Of a DNA stretch of 29,037 nucleotides, positions 1,642 through 26,325 are shown in pieces. The DNA is taken from the IMG/VR virus record IMGVR_UViG_3300045988_046105, positions 1 to 29,037 of that record. The stretch is one strand, 5' to 3'. Numbering within the stretch: position 1 is the stretch's first letter; the number at the start of each line of letters is the position of its first letter. Under the pieces are notes generated by a model that was given only the letters and a program-made list of their open reading frames with translations, had not been told where the DNA came from and searched no databases. The position numbers and the translations under genes were made by a program. This stretch comes from a virus. Lineage: Duplodnaviria > Heunggongvirae > Uroviricota > Caudoviricetes.

Positions 1642-3113
1642 CAGATACAGTGTTATCTCCTGAAGAGCAGTTGATCGAGGATATTGCAGGGTTCACTCAC
1701 GATCCGCTTGGCTATGCCCTCTATGCGTTCCCGTGGGGGGAAGAGGGGACTGAACTGGCACATGCTACCGGTCCACGTCAGTGGCAGGCCGATGCGTTCC
1801 GAGAGATACGTGATCACCTGCAGAATCCAGAGACGCGTTATCAGCCGCTTATGCTGGCACGTGCTTCTGGTCACGGTATTGGTAAATCCGCATTCATCTC
1901 AATGCTCATCAACTGGGGCATGTCCACTTGCGAGGATTGTAAGGTCGTGGTGACCGCCAACACCGACAACCAGCTACGAACGAAGACCTGGCCGGAAATT
2001 ATCAAGTGGTCGAACCTTGCTATCACGAAAGACTGGTTTACCTGTACCGCTACCGCGATGTACAGCAATGACCCTGGGCACGACAAGCGGTGGCGGGCTG
2101 ATGCAATACCCTGGTCTGAGCACAACACTGAGGCATTCGCCGGACTACACAACGAGCGCAAACGCATCATCGTGGTATTCGATGAAGCGTCGAACATTGC
2201 GGATCTGGTGTGGGAAGTTGCTGAGGGTGCGCTTACGGACGAAGACACTGAGATTATCTGGGTGGCGTTCGGAAACCCTACACGTAATACCGGGCGTTTT
2301 CGCGAATGTTTCCGCAAATACAAACACCGCTGGAAAACTGCGCAGATTGACAGCCGGACGGTGGAAGGTACTAACAAACAGCAGTTGCAGAAATGGGTTG
2401 ATGACTACGGGGAAGACAGCGACTTCGTTAAAATCCGTGTGCGCGGCATATTCCCTGATGCATCTGAATTGCAGTTTATCCCTACCGGTCTTACTGATGA
2501 GGCCATGAAACGGGTGGTAACCGCTGCGCAGGTTGCACATGCTCCGGTGATAATCGGCGTTGACCCGGCATACTCCGGAGTTGATGACGCTGTGATATAC
2601 CTGCGGCAGGGGCTACACAGTAAGGTGCTGTGGACTGGCAACAAGACTACCGACGATCTGATTATGGCGAAGCGTATCGCTGACTTTGAAGACCAGTATC
2701 AGGCTGACGCGGTGTTCATCGACTTCGGTTACGGAACCGGTTTGAAGTCAATCGGTGACGGCTGGGGGCGTACATGGCAACTTGTTCCGTTCGGTGGCGC
2801 GTCTACTGACCCGCAGATGCTCAACAAGCGTGGGGAGATGTTCAATTCATGCAAGACATGGCTGAGGCTTGGCGGCATGCTGGATGACCAGGAAACAGCA
2901 GACGACCTGTCGGCGGCAGAGTACAAAGTTCGAGTGGACGGTAAAATCGTTATCGAACCGAAGGAAGATATCAAGGAGCGGCTTGGGCGTTCGCCTGGTA
3001 AAGGCGATGCGCTACTGCTGACGTTTGCTTTCCCGGTGTCAAAGCGCCTGCGAATTCCCGGGCAGCAGAACCAGCAAGGCAAGGCCATTACAGATTACGA
3101 TCCCTATGCTTAA
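1638..3113 (+). CDS. terminase large subunit
   Basis: 491 aa; Walker A-like GHGIGKS, acidic ...VVFDEAS..., position and size. GTG start overlapping the upstream stop (GTGA). Confidence 0.9.
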   Translation: MTDTVLSPEEQLIEDIAGFTHDPLGYALYAFPWGEEGTELAHATGPRQWQADAFREIRDHLQNPETRYQPLMLARASGHGIGKSAFISMLINWGMSTCEDCKVVVTANTDNQLRTKTWPEIIKWSNLAITKDWFTCTATAMYSNDPGHDKRWRADAIPWSEHNTEAFAGLHNERKRIIVVFDEASNIADLVWEVAEGALTDEDTEIIWVAFGNPTRNTGRFRECFRKYKHRWKTAQIDSRTVEGTNKQQLQKWVDDYGEDSDFVKIRVRGIFPDASELQFIPTGLTDEAMKRVVTAAQVAHAPVIIGVDPAYSGVDDAVIYLRQGLHSKVLWTGNKTTDDLIMAKRIADFEDQYQADAVFIDFGYGTGLKSIGDGWGRTWQLVPFGGASTDPQMLNKRGEMFNSCKTWLRLGGMLDDQETADDLSAAEYKVRVDGKIVIEPKEDIKERLGRSPGKGDALLLTFAFPVSKRLRIPGQQNQQGKAITDYDPYA

Positions 3114-3778: not shown

Positions 3779-3855
3779 TGGCGTGGCATGCAGGATTCGA
3801 ACCTGCGACCAACCGCTTAGAAGGCGGTTGCTCTGTCCAACTGAGCTAATGCCAC
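3779..3855 (-). tRNA. tRNA-Arg (anticodon UCU), 77 nt, CCA encoded
   Basis: Hand-folded reverse complement GTGGCATTAGCTCAGTTGGACAGAGCAACCGCCTTCTAAGCGGTTGGTCGCAGGTTCGAATCCTGCATGCCACGCCA: 7-bp acceptor, 4-bp D stem, 5-bp anticodon stem, loop CUUCUAA, 5-bp T stem with TTCGAAT loop. Confidence 0.9.
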
Positions 3856-4176: not shown

Positions 4177-4193
4177 CTTACCTGAAGGGTAAT
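4177..4193. promoter_or_regulatory. operator-like palindrome CTTACC-TGAAG-GGTAAT (site S6) upstream of the portal operon
   Basis: Read directly; sits in the ~420-bp non-coding region 3856-4282 about 90 bp upstream of the first structural-operon ATG. Confidence 0.4.
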
Positions 4194-4282
4194 AATTCGT
4201 GCATTAAATGTCAACTATCTACGATAAATAAATCATATGTGGTTAAATTGGTAATAATTTAATTGCGTACGGAGTCATTGAT

Positions 4283-17793: not shown

Positions 17794-20268
17794 ATGAGAC
17801 AGGAATGTATACAAGCGGTTCAGCAGGCGGCGCAGCGCATGTTAACGGCGCGAGAAATACAGAACATTGAAGACCGCATTTATCGAAATATGCGCTCCAT
17901 TGCTCGTGATGACCCTATGTCGTGGCGACAACTTTCCGAATCAGAGCGGCTATATCGAGCAGCACAATTGGCATCTGAAGAATTACAGCGAGAAGCGGCA
18001 TTAAAGAAACGTCGTGTGGCTCTCACTATAGCCGCGCGTCAGAGATTGGATAAATTTATCAATAGCTATCAAGGGGCTGATGGGAAACTTGGCGCTCTTA
18101 ACCGTACTATAGCTTTTAATGCAGACGGTAAATCTAATTTCCTCTCTGTTGAATCCAGAACAAAAGCCACCCGTGATTATGCATTGAGTCAATTGCAGGA
18201 GGCATTCGAAGCAGTTGATCCTCGCTTTTTTGGTCTGTTTGAAGATGAAGCGGGCGTACGTGACCTGGTATATGAAATGCGGGGGCAAAATACTGGCAAT
18301 GCTAAAGCAAGAAACGGTGCTAAGGCGTGGAGAGAAGTTACAGAGCTGCTGCGCCGCCGGTTTAATGATGCTGGTGGGGACATTGGCTATCTCGAAAACT
18401 GGGGGATCCCTCAACATCATTCTATGGAAAAGGTTGGGGCAGTATCAAAGGATAAGTGGGTTAGCGATGTTATAGGTAAGCTGGATCGCAAATATTATAT
18501 CCGAGCCGATGGACAACTGATGAACGATGCCGAGTTGTCTTCATTTCTTGGAGAGGCTTATAACACGATCGCTACTGGTGGGCTGAATAAGCTTACTGAT
18601 ACCGGAATGCGAATTTCCGGCGCACGTGCTAACCGTGGTAATGCATCACGACAGATACATTTCAAAGATGCAGATTCCTATCTGCAATATCAGCAACTTT
18701 ATGGCGATCGCTCTCTATGGGAAATCATGGTCGGTCACCTGGAAGGTATCAGTAAAGATATTGCACTGGTGGAAACATATGGCCCAAACCCCGATCATGT
18801 TTTCCGCTCTCTTCTTGATCAGGTGAAGGCAGAAACGGCAACAGCTAACCCGAGTAAAACCGGTAAAGTCGAGCGGCTGGCGAACAACACAGAGAATCTG
18901 TACAACTTTATTTCCGGAAAGACACAGCCTGTAGCGAATCCGCACATCGCGCGATGGTCTGACAATATCCGCAACTGGCTGGTTGCCAGCAGACTCGGAT
19001 CCGCGTTGCTGTCATCGTTCTCTGATCTTGGAACCATGTATCTGTCTGCGAAGGTTACCAACCTTCCAATGAACCAGTTATTCCGCAACCAGCTTGAAGC
19101 TATGGACCCAACGAACCGTACAGAACTTGCGCGGGCTCGCCGCGCTGGTCTGGCGATGGAATCTCTACTTGGCAGCGTTAACCGCTGGGCGATGGATAAT
19201 ATGGGGCCGTCAGTGTCTCGTTGGGCGGCAACGGCGGTAATGCGTGCCAGTGGGCTTACAGCATGGTCAGATGCGCACAAGCGCGCCTATGGCGTAACCA
19301 TGATGGGAAGCCTGGGAGAAGTAGTGTCACGGACACCAGACCTTCGTAGCCTCGATGACTCTGATTTTCGTATCCTGAAAAGCAAAGGGATTACTGACAC
19401 AGACTGGAGCGTATGGAAGCTGGCGAAACAGGAGGACTGGGGGAACGGTAATAATACGATGCTGACACCGGAAAGCATTATGCGTATCCCTGATTCAGCA
19501 GTTAAACATCTTGGTGAGCCTGAACGCGTGAAATTTGAGGCAATGCGTAAACTGCTCGGTGCCGTAACTGAAGAAGTTGATATGGCTGTTATTACACCGG
19601 GAGCACGTGAGCAACTGATAACCGGTTCTGGTATTCAGCGTGGAACATGGAAAGGTGAATTAACGAGAAGTGTTTTCCTGTTTAAATCGTTCCCTATCTC
19701 GGTTGTTATGCGTCACTGGTCACGCGCTATGGGTATGCCGTCTGCTGGTGGGCGTGCGGCATATATTGCGACGTTTATTGCCAGTACGACCATTCTTGGC
19801 GCTTTGTCGCAGCAACTTAACGACCTTGCGTCTGGTCGTAATCCTCGAGAGATGACAGGAGAAGATGCCGCAAAATTCTGGCTTGGTGCTCTACTGAAAG
19901 GTGGTGGTCTTGGCCTTTACGGTGACTTTTTATTGTCAGATCACACTAGGTACGGAAGCGGCGCGCTGGCGTCGATGCTTGGCCCGGTAGCTGGTCTGGT
20001 TGATGACGTAGTGAAGATTGCTCAGGGCATACCGTTAAATGCTGTGGAAGGGAAGAGTGAGCAGACTGGTGGTGATCTGGTGAAGCTGGGGAAAGGTTTG
20101 ATGCCTGGTGCGAATCTCTGGTACTTGAAGGCGGCTCTCGATCACATGATCTTTAACCAGATGCAGGAGTATTTTTCACCAGGCTATTTGCGTAAAATGG
20201 AGCAACGTTCGAAGAAAGAGTTTAACCAGACATACTGGTGGCGACCACAGGATGTCACTCCGCAATAA
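17794..20268 (+). CDS. internal virion protein D-like (gp16 position)
   Basis: 824 aa, SD GAGAGG; last large gene of virion block. Confidence 0.55.
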   Translation: MRQECIQAVQQAAQRMLTAREIQNIEDRIYRNMRSIARDDPMSWRQLSESERLYRAAQLASEELQREAALKKRRVALTIAARQRLDKFINSYQGADGKLGALNRTIAFNADGKSNFLSVESRTKATRDYALSQLQEAFEAVDPRFFGLFEDEAGVRDLVYEMRGQNTGNAKARNGAKAWREVTELLRRRFNDAGGDIGYLENWGIPQHHSMEKVGAVSKDKWVSDVIGKLDRKYYIRADGQLMNDAELSSFLGEAYNTIATGGLNKLTDTGMRISGARANRGNASRQIHFKDADSYLQYQQLYGDRSLWEIMVGHLEGISKDIALVETYGPNPDHVFRSLLDQVKAETATANPSKTGKVERLANNTENLYNFISGKTQPVANPHIARWSDNIRNWLVASRLGSALLSSFSDLGTMYLSAKVTNLPMNQLFRNQLEAMDPTNRTELARARRAGLAMESLLGSVNRWAMDNMGPSVSRWAATAVMRASGLTAWSDAHKRAYGVTMMGSLGEVVSRTPDLRSLDDSDFRILKSKGITDTDWSVWKLAKQEDWGNGNNTMLTPESIMRIPDSAVKHLGEPERVKFEAMRKLLGAVTEEVDMAVITPGAREQLITGSGIQRGTWKGELTRSVFLFKSFPISVVMRHWSRAMGMPSAGGRAAYIATFIASTTILGALSQQLNDLASGRNPREMTGEDAAKFWLGALLKGGGLGLYGDFLLSDHTRYGSGALASMLGPVAGLVDDVVKIAQGIPLNAVEGKSEQTGGDLVKLGKGLMPGANLWYLKAALDHMIFNQMQEYFSPGYLRKMEQRSKKEFNQTYWWRPQDVTPQ

Positions 20269-20487
20269 AAGGAGATATGATAGTTCAAATAACTTTTATT
20301 GTACTAATATGTGCAGCGTTTTTATGCTATTCATACATTTTGATAAAAATGGGTTTCAATTGGAATCTCTGTTGCGTGCAGCGGCATGGTTCGGCTTTGT
20401 AGTATTCGGAATTGTATTGTTCGGAAGAATAATAAAATAACTAGTTAATTTGTGGATTGGTGCTGTTTTTCCATGATAGGGGTAATT

Positions 20488-20868
20488 ATGAGAAAAGTAT
20501 TTTTGATTTTTGGATTTATGCTTCTCGTTGGATGCCAGTCAGCTGCACAGTTTGAAAGAAATATGCTTACGTGGCGCGGGCAGAGTATAGACGCAATGGT
20601 TCAGCAGTGGGGGTATCCTCAGGGAGAGCTTACATCTCCAGATGGAAACAGAGTGTATGTTTACTCAAGCTCTGGTAGTTATAACGTACCACAAACCACA
20701 ACGTATAATACTACGTCTAATCTAATTGGTAATACTATATATTCAAACACATACGCAACAACTGATGGCGGTTATACACTCCATTTCAGTTGCTCTGTTT
20801 ACGTTGAGTTTGGTGCTGATAAGATTATTAAAAATGTTACATGGCGCGGTAATAATTGCGTTGCGTGA
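20488..20868 (+). CDS. lipoprotein (moron; candidate superinfection-exclusion / receptor-masking factor)
   Basis: ATG 20488 with AGGGG SD; signal peptide MRKVFLIFGFMLLVGC with lipobox LVGC; AT-rich gene unlike flanking virion genes; stop inside palindrome copy 3. Confidence 0.6.
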   Translation: MRKVFLIFGFMLLVGCQSAAQFERNMLTWRGQSIDAMVQQWGYPQGELTSPDGNRVYVYSSSGSYNVPQTTTYNTTSNLIGNTIYSNTYATTDGGYTLHFSCSVYVEFGADKIIKNVTWRGNNCVA

Positions 20869-20876
20869 CATGTCAC
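20865..20876. repeat. exact palindrome GTGACATGTCAC, copy 3 (14-mer in inverted orientation, CGTGACATGTCACA)
   Basis: Read directly; overlaps lipoprotein stop codon. Confidence 0.9.
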
Positions 20877-20901
20877 AGGCCGCTTTCGCGGCCTTGTTTT
20901 T
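20877..20901 (+). terminator. intrinsic terminator of lipoprotein gene
   Basis: AGGCCGC-TTTC-GCGGCCT followed by TGTTTTTA. Confidence 0.6.
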
Positions 20902-21061
20902 AACGAATGCCACCGCCACCCGGGCGGGAATCCGCAGAACGCCCACCGCAGCGGGAGCCGTCAGCAGCAGTGTCGCTGTCGTGCTGACAACGACCGGCAA
21001 AGGCCTGAGTTGAAGCTACCAGAGACAACAAAACGAACAGTGCAGCAAATGCTTTTTTCAT
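20900..21061 (-). CDS. small secreted Cys-containing peptide (53-aa precursor; ~31-aa mature Gly/Arg/Asp-rich peptide)
   Basis: Internal ATG 21061 gives MKKAFAALFVLLSLVASTQAFA-GRCQHDSDTAADGSRCGGRSADSRPGGGGIR: classic signal peptide with AxA site, two Cys, E. coli-like codons. SD is weak. Confidence 0.35.
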   Translation of the reverse strand: MKKAFAALFVLLSLVASTQAFAGRCQHDSDTAADGSRCGGRSADSRPGGGGIR

Positions 21062-21133
21062 TGTTAAATTTCCATCTATAAGCCACCTCAATGTGGCGTT
21101 AATGAGTGTAGCACTGACTTTTGTTTCGTCCAC

Positions 21134-21154
21134 AAAAAAGCCCGCAGCGCGGGC
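21134..21154 (-). terminator. intrinsic terminator directly after stop of 21155..21694
   Basis: Minus strand: GCCCGC-GCU-GCGGGC followed by UUUUUU. Confidence 0.6.
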
Positions 21155-21694
21155 TTACCAAAACTTGTACCACGGGGATTTATCCTTCAATGGACAATCC
21201 TTCCATCGTGTGGCCAACCATTCATATTCTTTAAAATATGTGTTTATGTTTTCTTTTTCTCTAATGGCTTGTATAAGAGGTAGCGCAATCTGATAGTTAT
21301 TTACAACGGAGCTGTAAAATACTTCCTTAATCATGGTCTCATCATAAGTTTTCCGCTTCACGCTCACAGCCATGCGTTCGTAGAAACCTAGACAGTAAAT
21401 TATTTCTCTCTTCTCTGTCTTTTCTTCATCCGTAAGATCAGCCTGCCCATTGCTTGGATACATATAAGAGCGGAATGATTTGTTCGATTCGTGAATGCGG
21501 CGCATAGTAGATAGGCCTTTCTTATAATCTACATCAAACCTGCTTTCACCAAGGAATACTGAAGTGTGTACTTTTCTCGCTGTATTTACATTATAAATAA
21601 TAGTAGCGATAGCTATGAACAAGCCAAGCGAAACCGCGACTGCACTTACGATTTGAGCCACAGCCATGGCAAATTGCATTTCTTCACTTAACAC
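21155..21694 (-). CDS. membrane-anchored protein with ~150-aa predicted cytoplasmic domain (candidate exclusion/abortive-infection factor)
   Basis: GTG 21694 with GGAGA SD 6 nt upstream (alternative ATG 21679). One long N-terminal TM helix followed by basic residues. AT-rich. No family recognised. Confidence 0.55.
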   Translation of the reverse strand: MLSEEMQFAMAVAQIVSAVAVSLGLFIAIATIIYNVNTARKVHTSVFLGESRFDVDYKKGLSTMRRIHESNKSFRSYMYPSNGQADLTDEEKTEKREIIYCLGFYERMAVSVKRKTYDETMIKEVFYSSVVNNYQIALPLIQAIREKENINTYFKEYEWLATRWKDCPLKDKSPWYKFW

Positions 21695-21711
21695 AAACTG
21701 TCTCCAGACAT

Positions 21712-21735
21712 GAAAACGGGGCCTAATGGCCCCGT
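21712..21735 (-). terminator. terminator-like hairpin (candidate attenuator) immediately upstream of RBS of 21155..21694
   Basis: Minus strand: ACGGGGCC-AUUA-GGCCCCGU then UUUCAUGU, followed 8 nt later by GGAGA and the start codon. Confidence 0.4.
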
Positions 21736-21753
21736 CATTAAACTATCCGAATG

Positions 21754-21786
21754 TTAAACGCCTTCGTACTCGTCAAATTTTCTCAT
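21754..21786 (-). CDS. candidate leader peptide MRKFDEYEGV (10 aa)
   Basis: ATG preceded by AGGAGGAG at 5-nt spacing; ends 18 nt before the attenuator-like hairpin. Could be coincidental. Confidence 0.2.
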   Translation of the reverse strand: MRKFDEYEGV

Positions 21787-21822
21787 GTGGGCTCCTCCTG
21801 TATCGGTGCCTAATCGCTATGG

Positions 21823-21839
21823 ATCACCCGTGAGGTAAT
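21823..21839. promoter_or_regulatory. operator-like palindrome ATCACC-CGTGA-GGTAAT (site S7) overlapping predicted -10/+1 of the 21155..21694 promoter
   Basis: Read directly; minus-strand promoter TGTACA-N18-TACTAT predicted by eye. Confidence 0.4.
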
Positions 21840-21870
21840 AGTAAGCTATTCACCTGCAATCTGTACAGAA

Positions 21871-21895
21871 TTATTTAAAGGCACATCCCTGTGCC
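21871..21895 (-). terminator. intrinsic terminator after Bro-N gene
   Basis: Minus strand: GGCACA-GGGA-UGUGCC followed by UUUAAAUAAUU. Confidence 0.45.
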
Positions 21896-21903
21896 GCCGC
21901 CCG

Positions 21904-22596
21904 TCAGAAGAACCCTGCTTTGTCGTTGATGTACTCCGCGTGCGTCTGGATATCACGCAGGCATTTGCTCACACCAACGATGTAGCAGAACATGGTGGTC
22001 AGCTCCGCCGCCGCGCCCGATACATCGTGCCCGTCTTCCTGTAACTGGTTCAGCAGATTCATCAGCAGTGAGTTTTCCGTCAGGCCGAGAACACCAGACG
22101 GCGAGTGAATCAGGCTGCGGTAGCCGGGCTTCAGTGGGGCGCTGTAGGTTTTGTTCTCTATCTTCATTGCCTGCATCACTGCTGATGCTGTGGCGTTGGC
22201 TACCTGGTCGGCAACCATCTTTATGCGTTCTTCCTGCGGGAGCGAGTTTTTAATGTAACTTCCGGTGCGGCGGATCTGAGGAAGAACCTCACCTGTAACC
22301 CATTCAAGAAATCTGAATGCTCTCGTTCCCTCAGTCATTGCCTCTTTGCAACGCAGAATAAGGATGTAGAGACCTGATTCTGAAACGATGGATAGTTCTT
22401 GTATTCCACCAGGGGTCTGTATTGAATACAGCCCCTTTTTGTTCCAGCCTTTTTTATCAAGTTTTCTCGCTTGTGTAACATCAATATTCAAAGCATTGCA
22501 CACATCTTTGGTGACAAACCAAGGTTCTCCGTCAATCATGAACATACGGATCTGGCAGGATGACTCAAAGGAAAAGATGGAAGGTTTGGTATTCAT
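21904..22596 (-). CDS. Bro-N domain protein with distinct ~80-aa C-terminal domain (antirepressor-like)
   Basis: ATG 22596 with AAGGTGA SD (track ORF extends to 22641 via non-ATG start). N-terminus FESSCQIRMFMIDGEPWFVTKDV...GLYILILRCKEAMTEGTRAFRFLEWVTGEVLPQIRRTG matches the Bro-N pattern (recollection); C-terminal domain is paralogous to 23743..24000. Confidence 0.75.
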   Translation of the reverse strand: MNTKPSIFSFESSCQIRMFMIDGEPWFVTKDVCNALNIDVTQARKLDKKGWNKKGLYSIQTPGGIQELSIVSESGLYILILRCKEAMTEGTRAFRFLEWVTGEVLPQIRRTGSYIKNSLPQEERIKMVADQVANATASAVMQAMKIENKTYSAPLKPGYRSLIHSPSGVLGLTENSLLMNLLNQLQEDGHDVSGAAAELTTMFCYIVGVSKCLRDIQTHAEYINDKAGFF

Positions 22597-22745
22597 GGCG
22601 ATCACCTTTGTAGTTAGGTTAATCACCACCGCTGAGACCAATCAGATGGTGGTGAACTGTGCAGAGTTGGTCTTACCGGCTACAAAGGAACCCGGCGCAC
22701 CTTTCGGTGCCCCCACACAGCCCACCATAGAATAGGTGCGCTTTA

Positions 22746-22843
22746 CACATAAAAAAACCGCTTATGCGGCATATGTGCCTCTGTAGTAATCCGGGAGACC
22801 AATCCCGGCACTGGATTTTGCCAGTGCCCGATTACTATGGCAC
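22746..22843 (-). ncRNA. structured 5' leader / candidate small RNA upstream of Bro-N gene, ending in hairpin plus U7
   Basis: Nested helices: GTGCC(22775-79)/GGCAC(22839-43) and GTAATC/GATTAC enclose two stem-loops (CCGGGA-N6-TCCCGG; GGCACTGG-N6-CCAGTGCC); then CCGC-N4-GCGG plus U7 (22751-22769). The 69-aa ORF over this region has no ATG and spans promoter elements. Confidence 0.35.
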
Positions 22844-22862
22844 AAGAGGAGTGCGATGTAAA

Positions 22863-22879
22863 TTTACCGCAAAGGTAAT
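22863..22879. promoter_or_regulatory. operator-like palindrome TTTACC-GCAAA-GGTAAT (site S1) overlapping -10/+1 of predicted Bro-N promoter
   Basis: Read directly; minus-strand promoter TTGATT-N18/19-TATCAT predicted by eye. Confidence 0.45.
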
Positions 22880-22955
22880 GATAAGCGCGGATAAATATTA
22901 AAATCAACCGTATTTGGTTGATTGCGTTTAACGCTTGATCACCTGAAAGCAAGAT

Positions 22956-22972
22956 ATTACCTTTAAGGTAAT
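22956..22972. promoter_or_regulatory. operator-like palindrome ATTACC-TTTAA-GGTAAT (site S2) just upstream of RBS of 22992..23720, plus half-site ATCACC-TGAAA at 22938-22948
   Basis: Read directly; perfect 6-5-6 dyad. Confidence 0.45.
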
Positions 22973-22991
22973 GTTATTGTGAGGAAAAGCA

Positions 22992-23720
22992 ATGGAAGTT
23001 TTCTGGATAGTTGTTGGTGTGGTTGCGGTGATTATTTACGTTATCAACCAGAACAAGACTAAGATCTCTGATCGTACGGTCGTTAATCATAACAAAACGA
23101 TAAAGACCGAAGATGGGGAGATAACGATTAATCGTACACAGGTGATAGAACACACCTCTACTCAGTTTCAAAAAACTGGAGGTAATGCGCCTAATATTTC
23201 CGCACCTCCTGCTTATGATAGTGCGGTAATCCAGACATATTATAAACAGCAGGAGTTAGCAAAAGAGAGGCAACTGATTCAGCCAAAGCCGTTTACAGCT
23301 GAGCTTCCACCTGGAGTGTCAATGCGTCCGGCATATCATGGAAGATTCCCTGGTGATGACATATCGTCTCAGTCATCTAAAAAAGCACCTCAGGCAGTAT
23401 CAGAGCCAGCAAGAATACCTTCTGTATCGCCGCCAAAAGAAGAATCAGCTAACAGAGTTTCAAGTGGTAGCAAGCAGTGCTTGCGATGCAGAATAAACCT
23501 ACCATATGAAAAATTCAGGAAATCGTCAAAAAATCCAGATGGATTGACTAAGTGGTGTGCAAGGTGTCTCGATGGCCCAAAGAATACACGCCATATGAAG
23601 TGGTGCCCAATTTGTAATGTCCGCAGAAAACGAACAAGCTTTTACCCTAATAATCAAAATGCGGATGGCTTAATGGCATGGTGCAAAACGTGCTGGGACG
23701 AGCACAAAGCGAAACGATAG
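22992..23720 (+). CDS. membrane-anchored protein with Pro-rich linker and tandem C-terminal zinc-ribbon-like repeats
   Basis: SD GAGGA 6 nt upstream; N-terminal TM helix; two repeats of C-x2-C-x17/18-(P/A)DGL-x3-WC-x2-C (CLRC...PDGLTKWCARC and CPIC...ADGLMAWCKTC). Confidence 0.6.
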   Translation: MEVFWIVVGVVAVIIYVINQNKTKISDRTVVNHNKTIKTEDGEITINRTQVIEHTSTQFQKTGGNAPNISAPPAYDSAVIQTYYKQQELAKERQLIQPKPFTAELPPGVSMRPAYHGRFPGDDISSQSSKKAPQAVSEPARIPSVSPPKEESANRVSSGSKQCLRCRINLPYEKFRKSSKNPDGLTKWCARCLDGPKNTRHMKWCPICNVRRKRTSFYPNNQNADGLMAWCKTCWDEHKAKR

Positions 23721-23744
23721 GCCGCTCTTGCGGCCTTTAAATTT
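23720..23744 (+). terminator. terminator hairpin between convergent genes
   Basis: GGCCGC-TCTT-GCGGCC followed by TTTAAATTT. Confidence 0.5.
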
Positions 23745-24000
23745 ACCGGGTTTGTTTTCGTAATTGTTCGGCACAATAGTCGAGATGTGTTTGCAGATCC
23801 CGCATAGACATCTGTGAGCTGGTGACGTAGTTAATCAGTGCAGTCAGTTCGGCAAGTGGGCCATCGACATTAAATCCATCCTTATCGAGATCCCGGAGTA
23901 ATTTCATCAAGTGCGATCCCTCCACCAGTGACCTGACGCCTCCCGGCGTGTGAATCCTTTCGGTAAATCCGTCTTCCAGTGGATAGTGATACCGCTGCAT
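23743..24000 (-). CDS. small protein (85 aa) paralogous to the C-terminal domain of the Bro-N protein; predicted SOS-inducible antirepressor-like factor
   Basis: ATG 24000 with GGAGA SD 8 nt upstream (track ORF starts further upstream at a non-ATG). Roughly 45 percent identity by eye to the Bro-N C-terminal region. LexA-box-like palindrome 22 bp upstream. Confidence 0.6.
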   Translation of the reverse strand: MQRYHYPLEDGFTERIHTPGGVRSLVEGSHLMKLLRDLDKDGFNVDGPLAELTALINYVTSSQMSMRDLQTHLDYCAEQLRKQTR

Positions 24001-24021
24001 CTTATCTTCTCCATGCAATAA

Positions 24022-24037
24022 CTGTATATTTATACAG
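24022..24037. promoter_or_regulatory. LexA (SOS) box CTGTATATTTATACAG overlapping predicted -10 of the small-gene promoter
   Basis: Matches CTGT-N8-ACAG with AT-rich spacer (consensus TACTGTATATATATACAGTA); sits on a TATAAAT -10-like element of the minus-strand promoter. Confidence 0.65.
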
Positions 24038-24075
24038 TAGCAAATAATTTGTTTGCTATCCAGCACGTTTTGCAA

Positions 24076-24092
24076 ATTACCTGAAAGGTAAT
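24076..24092. promoter_or_regulatory. operator-like palindrome ATTACC-TGAAA-GGTAAT (site S3); half-site TTTCAGGTAAT at 24132-24142
   Basis: Read directly; perfect 6-5-6 dyad between the small LexA-box gene and the tailspike gene. Confidence 0.45.
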
Positions 24093-24195
24093 ATCTATTC
24101 GTATTTACAGCCTTTTTATCCATATGTGGTTTTTCAGGTAATAGAATAACCAGATATGCGGCGCAACGGGTGCTGCGACTATCTGGAGATTTAAC

Positions 24196-26325
24196 ATGAC
24201 GGTCTCAACCGAAGTTGACCACAACGAATACACCGGTAACGGCGTTACGACATCGTTTCCGTATACTTTTCGAATTTTCAGAAAATCAGACCTGGTTGTT
24301 CAGGTGTCTGACCTGAACGGGAACGTAACAGAATTGGTCCTGGATACCGGTTATACGGTAACTGGGGCGGGCACTTATAGTGGCGGTTCTGTGGTTCTTC
24401 CGTCTCCGCTTGCTACTGGCTGGCGAATTACGATAGATCGTGTGCTTGATGTAGTGCAGGAGACAGACCTTCGCAATCAGGGAAAATTTTTCCCCGAAGT
24501 GCATGAAGATGCCTTTGACTACCTGACGATGCTGATCCAGCAATGTTTTGGGTGGTTCAGACGTGCATTGATGAAGCCCTCTCTGCTTGCAAAATATTAC
24601 GATGCAAAGCAAAACAGAATTTCTAACCTTGCAGATCCATCACTTGAGCAGGATGCTGTAAATAATCGCTCAATGCGTAATTATGTCGATGCTGCAATCG
24701 CCGGGGTTGTTGGTGGTTTTGGTTGGTTTATTCAGTATGGTTCTGGGGCTGTGTACCGAACGTTCCAGGATAAGATGAGAGACACCATTAGTGTTCGTGA
24801 TTTTGGTGCAAAAGGAGACGGCATAACAGATGATACTGTAGCAATTCAAAATGCTATTAATGCAGTACCAGAAGGGGCTATACTTGGATTTTATGGTGGT
24901 GAATTTGTTTTTGATAAGGTTGAATTGTTTAAGCCAATAACATTAGTTGGTGATGCAACGTTAATTCACAACGGATTTAGAATAAAATCTAGCAGAATCC
25001 GATCACTTTTATCTGGCGTTCAGAAATGCAAGGATTACTCCGAGTCTTCAAGAGCATTTTATTGCTATGCAAATGAAGACCAAAGAGATTATGACGATAT
25101 TCAGATTTTATTTAATAGATTTGAAGGTTTCTTTTACTCTACGGCATTTGTTGCAAAAAACTATTATTTGGAGAATGACCCTAATTCAAGAATTGTCAAA
25201 AACACAAAAGTAATAGGGTGTACATCAGTTGCTCCTGATTCTGTAAATGCCGGTCATTTTCAACATATAGGCGTTACAAATGCTGAAACATCACATAACT
25301 CAACTTATGGCGGACAAAATGCAACATCATACAACTTCATTAACCAGAATGGATTTGTAAGGATTATAGGAAATTATGACCATAACAATAGCTATGGTTC
25401 ATGTGAGCTTGAGAACTCAATGGTGAGTAACTCAGTCATATCAGGTAATACGTTTTCGTCATATTTATGGGTGGATGATACAAGTAATGTTACTATTTCT
25501 GGAAATACCGTTTCATCAAGGATCAAAGTAACATCGCAAACTGACGATGTTCATAATATAACCATATCAGCAAATACCACAAAACGGATTACTATAGAGC
25601 AATTTGGAGAATCGCCGACAGGTCTGGTATATGGTGCATTAATTTCCTGCAACACTATTACTGGCGACAGTGATGGAAGTTCAGACATTTTATGTGCGTC
25701 ACTTGTTACAGGTGAAATTTCATCAAATTATTGTCATGGATCAGAAAAAAATATATCAATTGTCCGCCTGGATTCTTCTGATATAACTGTTAGAAACAAT
25801 AAAGGAAACAAAGGATTACTTACAATAAGTAACGATGGTGGAAGGATAATTGAATATGGCAATGATTCTATGGTTCTGTCTGGAAGCATAGATAGCAGAC
25901 ATATACATAATTTATTACATCCAGACACATCGTATTTAGACCTACCGGGGAAATATCTGCACGGAACTAAATATACTGGCAGTATCCCCCCCGGTTCCAC
26001 AGGAACTGTATCACTTCAAATACCATCAGGGGCAAGCCTTGTTTTCAGGGGCGTTTCTATATGGGTTCTAATTAGAGATGTTAGCAATAACAATATATCG
26101 TCATTCAGAATTGATGGTTCATATAGAGTTGTTGGTGGAAGTGTTGGTCTTAGTTTTGCTGATGCTTATTCGAAACTCGGGGTGGATGCAAACTCTATAA
26201 CAGTGTCAAACAATAACAGCACTTCTGGCAATATCAGCATAGCAATTAAAAACACAGATTCATCAAAAACCCTTCAGGTTACTGTTATGCCGGAGGTTTC
26301 AAGCAGGTTAGGTATTGAGGAATAG
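24196..26325 (+). CDS. tailspike protein with beta-helix (pectate-lyase-like) receptor-binding/depolymerase domain
   Basis: 709 aa, SD TGGAGA; conserved-looking N-terminal module then DFGAKGDGITDDTVAIQNAI motif typical of right-handed beta-helix glycanases; C-terminal two-thirds AT-rich with Asn/Ser/Thr-rich repeats. Confidence 0.85.
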   Translation: MTVSTEVDHNEYTGNGVTTSFPYTFRIFRKSDLVVQVSDLNGNVTELVLDTGYTVTGAGTYSGGSVVLPSPLATGWRITIDRVLDVVQETDLRNQGKFFPEVHEDAFDYLTMLIQQCFGWFRRALMKPSLLAKYYDAKQNRISNLADPSLEQDAVNNRSMRNYVDAAIAGVVGGFGWFIQYGSGAVYRTFQDKMRDTISVRDFGAKGDGITDDTVAIQNAINAVPEGAILGFYGGEFVFDKVELFKPITLVGDATLIHNGFRIKSSRIRSLLSGVQKCKDYSESSRAFYCYANEDQRDYDDIQILFNRFEGFFYSTAFVAKNYYLENDPNSRIVKNTKVIGCTSVAPDSVNAGHFQHIGVTNAETSHNSTYGGQNATSYNFINQNGFVRIIGNYDHNNSYGSCELENSMVSNSVISGNTFSSYLWVDDTSNVTISGNTVSSRIKVTSQTDDVHNITISANTTKRITIEQFGESPTGLVYGALISCNTITGDSDGSSDILCASLVTGEISSNYCHGSEKNISIVRLDSSDITVRNNKGNKGLLTISNDGGRIIEYGNDSMVLSGSIDSRHIHNLLHPDTSYLDLPGKYLHGTKYTGSIPPGSTGTVSLQIPSGASLVFRGVSIWVLIRDVSNNNISSFRIDGSYRVVGGSVGLSFADAYSKLGVDANSITVSNNNSTSGNISIAIKNTDSSKTLQVTVMPEVSSRLGIEE

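What the first reader, a model, noticed from the sequence alone, without database searches (positions are those of the whole stretch)
24001..24100. Near-consensus LexA box on the promoter of the stand-alone paralog
CTGTATATTTATACAG (24022-24037) fits CTGT-N8-ACAG with an AT spacer and sits on a TATAAAT -10-like element about 22 bp upstream of the start codon on the minus strand. SOS-controlled small antirepressors are known in Gifsy-type and 186-type prophages (LexA-regulated Tum/antirepressor paradigm). Here the LexA-box gene sits in the late region next to the tailspike, and an ATTACC-N5-GGTAAT operator lies about 45 bp further upstream, suggesting dual control.
Basis: partly seen in the sequence, partly recalled or inferred. 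Interest (0 to 1): 0.65.

Follow-up and report, generated by a model that had tools for sequence, protein, structure and literature searches.

The report
Known SOS-controlled phage antirepressor switch
The LexA box is real and very strong, but it sits on the promoter of the E. coli ortholog of the already characterised Ant antirepressor of Salmonella phage SPC32H, so this is a known DNA-damage trigger for prophage induction rather than a new one.

Summary
AACTGTATATTTATACAGTA (24020-24039) matches the 20-bp LexA consensus at 18 of 20 positions. It is the only such site in the 29-kb window, and no shuffle produced one. It lies 19 nt upstream of an 85-aa minus-strand gene (24000-23743).

That gene is the canonical small antirepressor Ant of epsilon15/phiV10-like podophages (Uetakevirus). 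It is 87% identical to SPC32H Ant and matches PDB 5D50 chain E at E=3.5e-46.

The box keeps its position and its CTGT/ACAG half-sites in about 93 of 98 related loci, while the AT spacer varies. The genome records of SPC32H and SPC32N differ at two bases only, and one destroys this box.

The mechanism is therefore the published one: LexA represses ant, SOS relieves it, and Ant disassembles the non-cleavable Rep tetramer.

The upstream ATTACC-N5-GGTAAT is real and is the phage Rep operator, since it clusters around rep in epsilon15, SPC32H and phiV10. Its layout is copied at the gp3 late promoter. It therefore most likely serves the tailspike promoter, and dual control of ant is unproven.

The larger "paralog" is a Bro-N::Ant fusion preceded by C4/isrK RNAs.

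Novelty: already known. Interest: low. The main value is annotation transfer, because the gene is called "hypothetical protein" in 531 of 5426 complete E. coli genomes.

The parts
24020..24039 (.). LexA (SOS) box, AACTGTATATTTATACAGTA; core CTGT-N8-ACAG at 24022-24037
   Evidence: The position, 19-21 nt before the ant ATG, is conserved in 98 loci. SPC32N carries a point mutation in the homologous box.
23743..24000 (-). ant: 85-aa small antirepressor, ortholog of SPC32H Ant (SPC32H_020)
   Evidence: tblastn gives 87% identity to SPC32H/SPC32N 'ant: anti-repressor protein'. phmmer gives E=3.5e-46 to PDB 5D50 chain E 'Anti-repressor protein'. There is no significant Pfam family.
24006..24012 (-). 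Shine-Dalgarno GGAGAAG of ant
   Evidence: Read directly from the sequence. GGAG is invariant in most relatives.
24034..24062 (-). Candidate ant promoter: TGGATA (24062-24057), 17 nt, TACTGT (24039-24034). An alternative -10 is TATAAAT (24034-24028), inside the box.
   Evidence: Inferred from conservation of GCTGGATAG and TACTGT across genera. The strict sigma-70 scan did not call it. No transcription start site is mapped here.
24076..24092 (.). Rep (prophage repressor) operator, ATTACCTGAAAGGTAAT
   Evidence: It is annotated 'protein_bind repressor / lysogeny' at the homologous epsilon15 position. The motif clusters on both sides of rep in epsilon15, phiV10 and SPC32H. The window has 8 sites with up to 2 mismatches against 0.89 expected.
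24119..24147 (+). Candidate tailspike promoter region: TCCATA-17-TAGAAT, containing the conserved CATATGTGGTT (24121-24131) and an operator half-site GGTAAT (24137-24142)
   Evidence: The block is conserved in 16 divergent loci. The same block lies upstream of gp3 at window 4234-4255 and in epsilon15. Its function is inferred.
24196..26325 (+). Tailspike gene, divergent from ant
   Evidence: pectate-lyase-like beta-helix; N-terminus shared with the epsilon15/phiV10 tailspikes.
21904..22599 (-). Bro-N::Ant-like fusion (231 aa from the ATG at 22599; the ORF extends to a TTG at 22641), the larger paralog
   Evidence: Pfam Bro-N, E=2e-13. The C-terminus is 43% identical to Ant and hits 5D50_E at E=9e-14. 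It is 81% identical to vB_EcoP_ZX5 ORF4, whose overexpression lowered lysogeny (PMC9782041).
22645..22827 (-). Leader of the Bro-N::Ant gene: C4 antisense RNA (22645-22732) and isrK-like RNA (22751-22827)
   Evidence: Rfam RF01695 at 78.6 bits (gathering score 45) and RF01394 at 74.7 bits (gathering score 50).
22863..22972 (.). Two further Rep-operator sites, 22863-22879 (TTTACCGCAAAGGTAAT) and 22956-22972 (ATTACCTTTAAGGTAAT), upstream of the C4/Bro-N unit and of the + strand gene 22992-23720

Best explanation
The window is the late region of an epsilon15/phiV10-like temperate podophage (Uetakevirus) of E. coli. The 85-aa minus-strand gene next to the tailspike is ant, the ortholog of the SPC32H antirepressor. 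Host LexA binds the near-perfect SOS box that overlaps the ant core promoter and start region, and keeps ant silent in the lysogen. DNA damage activates RecA, LexA cleaves itself, and ant is transcribed. Ant, a tetramer, binds the C-terminal domains of the non-cleavable CI-like repressor Rep, splits the Rep tetramer into dimers, and releases it from its ATTACC-N5-GGTAAT operators. The early and late promoters then fire and the prophage is induced.

Shown here: the box, its strength and uniqueness, its conservation, the orthology of Ant, the orthology of Rep in sister phages, and the identity of the operator.

Taken from the literature on the ortholog: LexA dependence, and the way Ant and Rep interact.

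Inferred: that the same holds quantitatively in this E. coli phage.
For: Box: 18 of 20 consensus positions, unique in the window, 0 of 100 shuffles. Approximate heterology index 0.86, against 13.1 for the next site.

Gene identity: 87% identical to the annotated SPC32H 'ant'; E=3.5e-46 to PDB 5D50_E 'Anti-repressor protein'.

Conservation: the box lies 19-21 nt from the ATG in 98 loci, with CTGT/ACAG kept while the 8-nt spacer takes at least 9 forms. It is also kept across Salmonella, Citrobacter, Enterobacter, Erwinia, Scandinavium and Pseudocitrobacter.

Natural genetics: the whole genomes of SPC32H and SPC32N differ at 2 nt, one of which changes CTGT to CTTT in this box.

Partner: phiV10 Rep matches 5D50_A 'Repressor' at E=4e-42.

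Literature: review PMC7380047 cites Kim & Ryu 2013 for antirepressor synthesis after LexA self-cleavage. PMC9638917 summarises that the Ant tetramer binds two Rep dimers and breaks the tetramer. My own recollection of the abstracts of Kim & Ryu 2013 (J Virol 87:11775) and Kim et al. 2016 (PNAS 113:E2480) agrees, but neither paper could be read here.
Against: There is no direct experiment on this E. coli phage. The rep gene is outside the window, so the partner was checked only in sister phages (phiV10, ZX5). The ant transcription start is unmapped, and the strict sigma-70 scan found no promoter there. The two primary papers were not held in the library, so LexA dependence rests on secondary citations, GenBank and PDB names, and my memory.
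Confidence: 0.9

Rival explanations
1. Dual control. Rep bound at 24076-24092 also represses the ant promoter. Ant synthesis would then need both LexA cleavage and loss of Rep, which gives a positive feedback loop (Ant removes Rep, and more ant is made).
For: The operator is a perfect palindrome only 13 bp upstream of the candidate -35 of ant. The 36-nt distance between operator and LexA box has no indels from E. coli to Scandinavium, although the sequence itself diverges. Rep is a looping-type tetramer (PMC9986798).
Against: The operator lies upstream of the ant core promoter, at roughly -49 to -65, and does not overlap it. The same module of operator, spacer, then CATATGTGGTT-N5-GGTAAT is found at the gp3 late promoter. 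The operator is therefore explained without ant. As I recall, the SPC32N box mutation alone makes Ant constitutive.
Confidence: 0.3
2. The operator serves only the rightward tailspike promoter. Rep binds 24076-24092 plus the half-site at 24137-24142, five helical turns away, traps P_tsp, and has no significant effect on ant.
For: The same architecture occurs at P_gp3 in the window and in epsilon15, with in-phase spacing of 53 and 62 bp centre to centre. The epsilon15 record places a repressor site and an IHF site upstream of both gp3 and the tailspike. The half-site overlaps the candidate spacer and -10 of P_tsp and is invariant in 16 loci.
Against: The P_tsp hexamers are weak (TCCATA / TAGAAT) and are only inferred. 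No binding data could be consulted. Being adjacent to P_ant makes some cross-effect plausible.
Confidence: 0.55
3. The box is a chance AT-rich palindrome or a dead remnant with no LexA function.
For: The loose CTGT-N8-ACAG pattern occurs 3 times in the window, and 5 of 100 shuffles reach that count.
Against: The full 20-mer is unique and absent from shuffles. The half-sites are conserved while the spacer varies. The SPC32H/SPC32N difference falls in the box.
Confidence: 0.02
4. The LexA box regulates the divergent tailspike or late transcription rather than ant.
For: The box lies in the shared ant-tailspike intergenic region.
Against: It is 157 bp upstream of the tailspike ATG, beyond the Rep operator and the candidate P_tsp. 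It is 19 nt from the ant ATG, a distance fixed across all loci.
Confidence: 0.03

Closest known systems
Ant/Rep antirepression switch of Salmonella phage SPC32H (Kim & Ryu 2013, J Virol 87:11775; Kim et al. 2016, PNAS 113:E2480; PDB 5D50, 5D4Z)
   Same: It is the same gene: 87% amino-acid identity and the same length class (85 vs 86 aa). It has the same position, divergent from the tailspike. It has the same LexA box at the same distance from the ATG, the same upstream Rep operator, and the same genus.
   Different: The host is E. coli rather than Salmonella, and Rep of the E. coli clade is only 42% identical to the epsilon15 Rep. The box is closer to consensus than that of SPC32H (heterology index 0.86 vs 2.3, approximate). 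The E. coli, Citrobacter, Enterobacter and Klebsiella lineages carry an extra Bro-N::Ant fusion with a C4 RNA leader, which SPC32H and epsilon15 lack.
LexA-controlled antirepressors of Gifsy prophages (GfoA, GftA, GfhA), 186 Tum and N15 AntC (Lemire et al. 2011, PMC3121763)
   Same: The logic is the same: a non-cleavable repressor inactivated by a small protein whose promoter carries a LexA box.
   Different: No sequence relationship was detected. Ant has no significant Pfam family and no DinI-like part. The Gifsy genes lie in a dinI operon downstream of the replication genes, not beside the tailspike. As summarised in PMC9638917, Ant acts by breaking the Rep tetramer through its C-terminal domain.
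P22 immI antirepressor (mnt-arc-ant next to tailspike gene 9)
   Same: An antirepressor locus is embedded in the late region immediately beside the tailspike gene (established knowledge of P22). The Bro-N paralog shows a faint P22_AR_N match of 17.6 bits, below the cut-off of 30.7.
   Different: P22 ant is controlled by Mnt, Arc and sar RNA, not by LexA, and an ant mutant of P22 remains SOS-inducible (PMC7380047). The small Ant is unrelated in sequence.
P1/P7 immI (c4 antisense RNA - icd - ant)
   Same: The larger paralog (Bro-N::Ant) is preceded by full-length Rfam matches to C4 RNA and to the isrK/a1b1-type leader.
   Different: This applies to the neighbouring gene, not to the LexA-box gene. 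Here the C4 unit is additionally flanked by Rep operators.

Membership tests
SPC32H-type LexA-Ant-Rep switch (Uetakevirus) | Small (about 86 aa) protein homologous to SPC32H Ant | tested here: met
   87% identity by tblastn; E=3.5e-46 to PDB 5D50_E over residues 2-84.
SPC32H-type LexA-Ant-Rep switch (Uetakevirus) | LexA box overlapping the ant promoter, just upstream of the ant start | tested here: met
   The box at 24020-24039 lies 19 nt from the ATG. It occupies the same alignment column as the SPC32H box that is mutated in SPC32N.
SPC32H-type LexA-Ant-Rep switch (Uetakevirus) | Cognate Rep homologous to SPC32H Rep encoded by the same phage | tested here: inconclusive
   rep lies outside the 29-kb window. 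In the sister phage phiV10 (91% DNA identity over the locus, Ant 97.6% identical), Rep hits 5D50_A at E=4e-42. Rep operators are present throughout the window.
SPC32H-type LexA-Ant-Rep switch (Uetakevirus) | Genomic position: minus-strand gene between the last internal-virion gene and the tailspike | tested here: met
   In the window several extra genes (20452-23720) are inserted between gp17-like and ant.
SPC32H-type LexA-Ant-Rep switch (Uetakevirus) | LexA binding in vitro, SOS-dependent ant expression, and Ant-dependent induction | not testable with these tools
   These need gel-shift, reporter and deletion experiments. Only the ortholog has been tested, as cited in PMC7380047.
186 Tum / Gifsy GfoA-type antirepressors | Sequence homology to Tum or GfoA, or association with a DinI-like module | tested here: not met
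   No Pfam domain reaches its cut-off in Ant, and there is no dinI-like gene in the locus. I did not run a direct alignment to Tum or GfoA.
P22 immI Ant | P22_AR_N / P22_AR_C domains and mnt/arc regulators | tested here: not met
   The small Ant has no match. The Bro-N paralog has only a sub-threshold P22_AR_N hit of 17.6 bits against a cut-off of 30.7.
P1-type immI (for the neighbouring Bro-N::Ant gene only) | C4 antisense RNA in the leader of the antirepressor gene | tested here: met
   RF01695 at 78.6 bits (gathering score 45), covering the full model 1-87, at 22645-22732 on the minus strand. The a1b1 target model scores 39.9 bits, below its gathering score of 46.7.

The most novel reading that the evidence does not exclude
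The locus may be a two-stage antirepressor circuit that has not been described. In stage one, the LexA-gated small Ant acts as the SOS trigger. In stage two, a Bro-N::Ant fusion amplifies or broadens the attack on Rep; this gene lies behind Rep operators and a C4 antisense RNA leader and carries the same Rep-binding fold. The Rep operator beside P_ant may add positive feedback on ant itself. The conserved order of ant, Rep operator, then Bro-N gene in six genera fits this idea, but nothing here shows it functionally.
Probability: 0.25. Interest if true: 0.45.

Novelty: already known. Interest (0 to 1): 0.15.

Why it matters
It adds little to biology. The switch from LexA to Ant to Rep was worked out genetically and structurally for SPC32H, a phage of the same genus.

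The practical value is in annotation. The same ant gene with its box occurs in 531 of 5426 complete E. coli genomes, where RefSeq calls it "hypothetical protein". The experimental paper on the E. coli phage vB_EcoP_ZX5 discussed only the Bro-N protein as the anti-repressor and never mentions LexA. Recognising the small gene as the SOS trigger explains why these prophages are induced by mitomycin C. It also identifies the base changes, or IS insertions (L063), that would lock them in or out of lysogeny.

Tried and rejected
1. I tried to read Kim & Ryu 2013 (by DOI and as PMC3807360), Kim et al. 2016 (PMC4983836) and Kropinski 2007 (PMC2698709). None is held. I relied instead on secondary citations, GenBank and PDB annotation, and a direct SPC32H/SPC32N genome comparison.

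2. I looked at the palindrome TAGCAAA-N7-TTTGCTA (24038-24058) between the box and the -35 as a possible third operator. I rejected it because only the right arm (TTTGCTAC) is conserved and the left arm differs in Salmonella, Enterobacter and Klebsiella loci.

3. The strict sigma-70 scan found no ant or tsp promoter. My promoter hexamers are therefore conservation-based guesses.

4. I considered TATAAAT as the -10 of ant. It is not conserved, because the spacer is inverted or altered in many relatives.

5. Consensus folding of the tailspike 5' leader with RNAalifold on my MAFFT alignment recovered only a trivial stem. The hairpin noted below rests on single-sequence folding and inspection.

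7. The heterology index uses LexA sites recalled from memory. Only the ranking should be trusted, not the absolute values.

Full report
**The observation**

The sequence is as described. CTGTATATTTATACAG occupies 24022-24037. With its flanks it reads AACTGTATATTTATACAGTA (24020-24039), two mismatches from the 20-bp E. coli LexA consensus TACTGTATATATATACAGTA.
- A search allowing three mismatches finds only this site in the 29-kb window, and none in 100 dinucleotide-preserving shuffles.
- The loose CTGT-N8-ACAG pattern is much weaker evidence: 3 hits against 0.46 expected, and 5 of 100 shuffles reached 3.
- I built a heterology index from 25 E. coli LexA boxes recalled from memory, so its values are approximate. 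It scores the site at 0.86, better than every reference box. The next best 20-mer in the window scores 13.1, and the best in 20 shuffles scores 8.2.

On the minus strand an ATG lies at 24000-23998, preceded by GGAG at 24012-24009. The 20-mer therefore ends 19 nt before the start of an 85-aa ORF (24000-23743). ATTACCTGAAAGGTAAT is at 24076-24092. The tailspike gene starts at 24196 on the + strand.

**What the gene is**

The window is the late region of an epsilon15/phiV10-like podophage (genus Uetakevirus). The locus is 91-98% identical to the E. coli phages TL-2011b, EC.W1-9, vB_EcoP_ZX5 and phiV10.

The 85-aa protein is 87% identical to the product of SPC32H_020, annotated "ant: anti-repressor protein" in Salmonella phages SPC32H and SPC32N. 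It matches PDB 5D50 chain E, "Anti-repressor protein", at E=3.5e-46 over residues 2-84. It has no significant Pfam family.

The "stand-alone paralog" is therefore the canonical Ant of this genus. The larger relative (21904-22599/22641, minus strand) is a Bro-N domain fused to an Ant-like C-terminus:
- it is 43% identical to Ant over 74 aa, E=1e-16;
- its C-terminus hits 5D50_E at E=9e-14.

**Evidence that the box is functional**

In a tblastn-anchored set of 98 Ant loci (phage records, IMG/VR contigs, and prophages of six other genera), a LexA box sits 19-21 nt before the ATG. CTGT and ACAG are kept while the 8-nt spacer takes at least nine forms, including ATAAATAT, ATATTTAT, ATAAACAT, ATGTTTAT, ACATTTAT and ACATATAT. 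An alignment of 16 divergent intergenic regions shows TAC-TGTA and ATACAGT as invariant blocks within a much less conserved background.

The exceptions are informative:
- One IMG/VR prophage (L063) has an approximately 1.9-kb insertion encoding a transposase-like ORF in the middle of the box.
- Four Klebsiella phages and a Superficieibacter prophage have ATGT-N8-ACAG instead.
- SPC32N carries a point mutation in the box.

I compared the complete 38,689-bp records of SPC32H and SPC32N. They differ at exactly two bases: 19960, which changes CTGT to CTTT in this box, and 20147, in the fifth codon of the tailspike gene.

This agrees with my recollection of the abstract of Kim & Ryu (2013, J Virol 87:11775). 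As I recall it, the two phages differ by two nucleotides, and a single change in the LexA-binding site overlapping the ant promoter makes Ant constitutive and drives SPC32N into lytic growth. I could not read that paper here. A held review does cite it for antirepressor synthesis after LexA self-cleavage (PMC7380047).

**Mechanism**

By orthology, the mechanism runs as follows.
1. LexA represses ant in the lysogen.
2. SOS-induced LexA autocleavage releases ant.
3. Ant inactivates Rep, the non-cleavable CI-like repressor.

PMC9638917 summarises the structural work of Kim et al. 2016. Rep binds DNA as a tetramer, and the Ant tetramer binds two Rep dimers and breaks the tetramer.

The rep gene lies outside this window. 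In phiV10, whose Ant is 97.6% identical, Rep matches 5D50_A "Repressor" over its full length at E=4e-42. The box, the orthology and the operators are shown here. LexA dependence and the mode of Ant-Rep interaction are taken from the ortholog. That they hold in this phage is an inference, which I rate at about 0.9.

**The second palindrome and "dual control"**

ATTACC-N5-GGTAAT is real and is the Rep operator.
- The epsilon15 record annotates the homologous site, and six others, as "protein_bind: repressor, lysogeny".
- In epsilon15 the motif forms two clusters of three on either side of rep, with further sites upstream of terS, gp3 and the tailspike.
- SPC32H and phiV10 show the same distribution.
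- The window holds 8 sites with up to 2 mismatches against 0.89 expected.

Whether this operator acts on ant is another matter. It lies upstream of the likely ant core promoter, not on it. The best conserved candidate for that promoter is TGGATA (24062-24057), 17 nt, TACTGT (24039-24034).

The sequence to the right of the operator copies the gp3 promoter region of both the window and epsilon15. In each case there is a full operator, then about 35-45 bp, then (T)CATATGTGGTT-N5-GGTAAT followed by an AT-rich -10-like element. The full site and the half-site are 53 and 62 bp apart centre to centre, which is five and six helical turns.

The simplest reading is that the operator belongs to the rightward tailspike promoter. 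I put that at about 0.55, and a real contribution of Rep to ant repression at about 0.3. No indels occur anywhere between the tailspike -10 region and the ant start across genera. That would fit a fixed nucleoprotein architecture, but it does not decide between the two.

**Comparison with known systems**

The system is the SPC32H Ant/Rep switch itself, found in a sister species. It works like the LexA-controlled antirepressors of Gifsy prophages, 186 (Tum) and N15 (AntC) described in PMC3121763. No sequence relationship to them was detected, and its genomic position differs. Its placement beside the tailspike recalls P22 immI, but there are no Mnt/Arc-type controls.

**Novelty and value**

This is already known. 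What is worth recording is the annotation gap. The ant gene with its box is present in 531 of 5426 complete E. coli genomes, where it is labelled "hypothetical protein". The functional study of the E. coli phage vB_EcoP_ZX5 treated only the Bro-N protein (ORF4) as the anti-repressor and never mentions LexA. ORF4 is 81% identical to the window's fusion.

The most novel reading that the evidence does not exclude is a two-stage circuit: the LexA-gated Ant as trigger, then a Bro-N::Ant fusion released from Rep operators and C4 RNA control. I rate it at about 0.25.

Noticed in passing
window 22645-22827 (minus strand): Full-length Rfam matches to C4 antisense RNA (22645-22732, 78.6 bits) and to isrK Hfq-binding RNA (22751-22827, 74.7 bits) lie immediately upstream of the Bro-N::Ant fusion gene. 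There is also a sub-threshold c4-a1b1 target match at 22788-22840. Together these form a P1/P7 immI-like c4-ant module inside a Uetakevirus late region.
   Followed up: partly
window 21904-22599 (minus strand); loci L008, L009, L010, L012, L094, L096, L098: The order ant, then a Rep-operator-like site (ATTACC-N5-GGTAAA) about 30 bp after the ant stop, then a Bro-N antirepressor gene is conserved in Citrobacter, Erwinia dacicola, Superficieibacter, Scandinavium, Klebsiella and Enterobacter loci. It is absent from epsilon15 and SPC32H. In the window a + strand gene (22992-23720) is inserted between the two.
   Followed up: partly
window 4177-4255 and 24076-24147; epsilon15 (L005) 2931-3010, 19895-19965, 35906-35985: A repeated late-promoter module is present: a full Rep operator, about 35-45 bp, then (T)CAT(A/T)TGTGGTT-N5-GGTAAT or ATTACC. 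The CATATGTGGTT element is not an obvious sigma-70 -35. It could be a site for a phage activator or part of a second, asymmetric Rep site.
   Followed up: partly
window 24150-24187 (+ strand): A GC-rich hairpin (GCGGCGCAACGGGTGCTGC, 24158-24176) lies in the tailspike leader. It is flanked by CCAGATA / TATCTGG, which would pair across the Shine-Dalgarno region (CUGGAG). A GC hairpin with different sequences and the CCAG...CUGGAG flanks recur in most of the 16 aligned loci. The RNAalifold consensus did not recover it.
   Followed up: partly
loci L094-L097 (Klebsiella phages) and L010 (Superficieibacter): The box is ATATGTATATATATACAGTA or a close variant (e.g. ATATGTATATGCATACAGTT in L010). The left half-site is ATGT instead of CTGT, and the approximate heterology index is 6.7-9.1. 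This suggests a weaker LexA site, or drift, in that clade.
   Followed up: no
locus L063 (IMGVR_UViG_2563366870_000004), about 1078-2967: An approximately 1.9-kb insertion encoding a transposase-like ORF sits in the AT spacer of the LexA box, at a position equivalent to window 24029-24033. It separates ant from its promoter and may be a natural lock-in of the prophage.
   Followed up: partly
window 22992-23720 (+ strand): This is a 242-aa protein with an N-terminal hydrophobic segment and C-terminal CxxC repeats. It has a weak Stc1-like zinc-finger match, E=5e-4, below the cut-off. It is inserted between ant and the Bro-N gene and has a perfect Rep operator (22956-22972) 20 bp upstream of its start. 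It is also present in Superficieibacter L010.
   Followed up: no
window 3782-3855 (minus strand): A tRNA gene (Rfam RF00005, 73.3 bits) lies between the terminase genes and gp3. The corresponding position in SPC32H is annotated tRNA-Arg.
   Followed up: no
window 21155-21694 (minus strand) and 21823-21839: A DUF4760 gene (E=8e-31) in the inserted-gene block has a Rep-operator-like site (ATCACCCGTGAGGTAAT) about 130 bp upstream.
   Followed up: no
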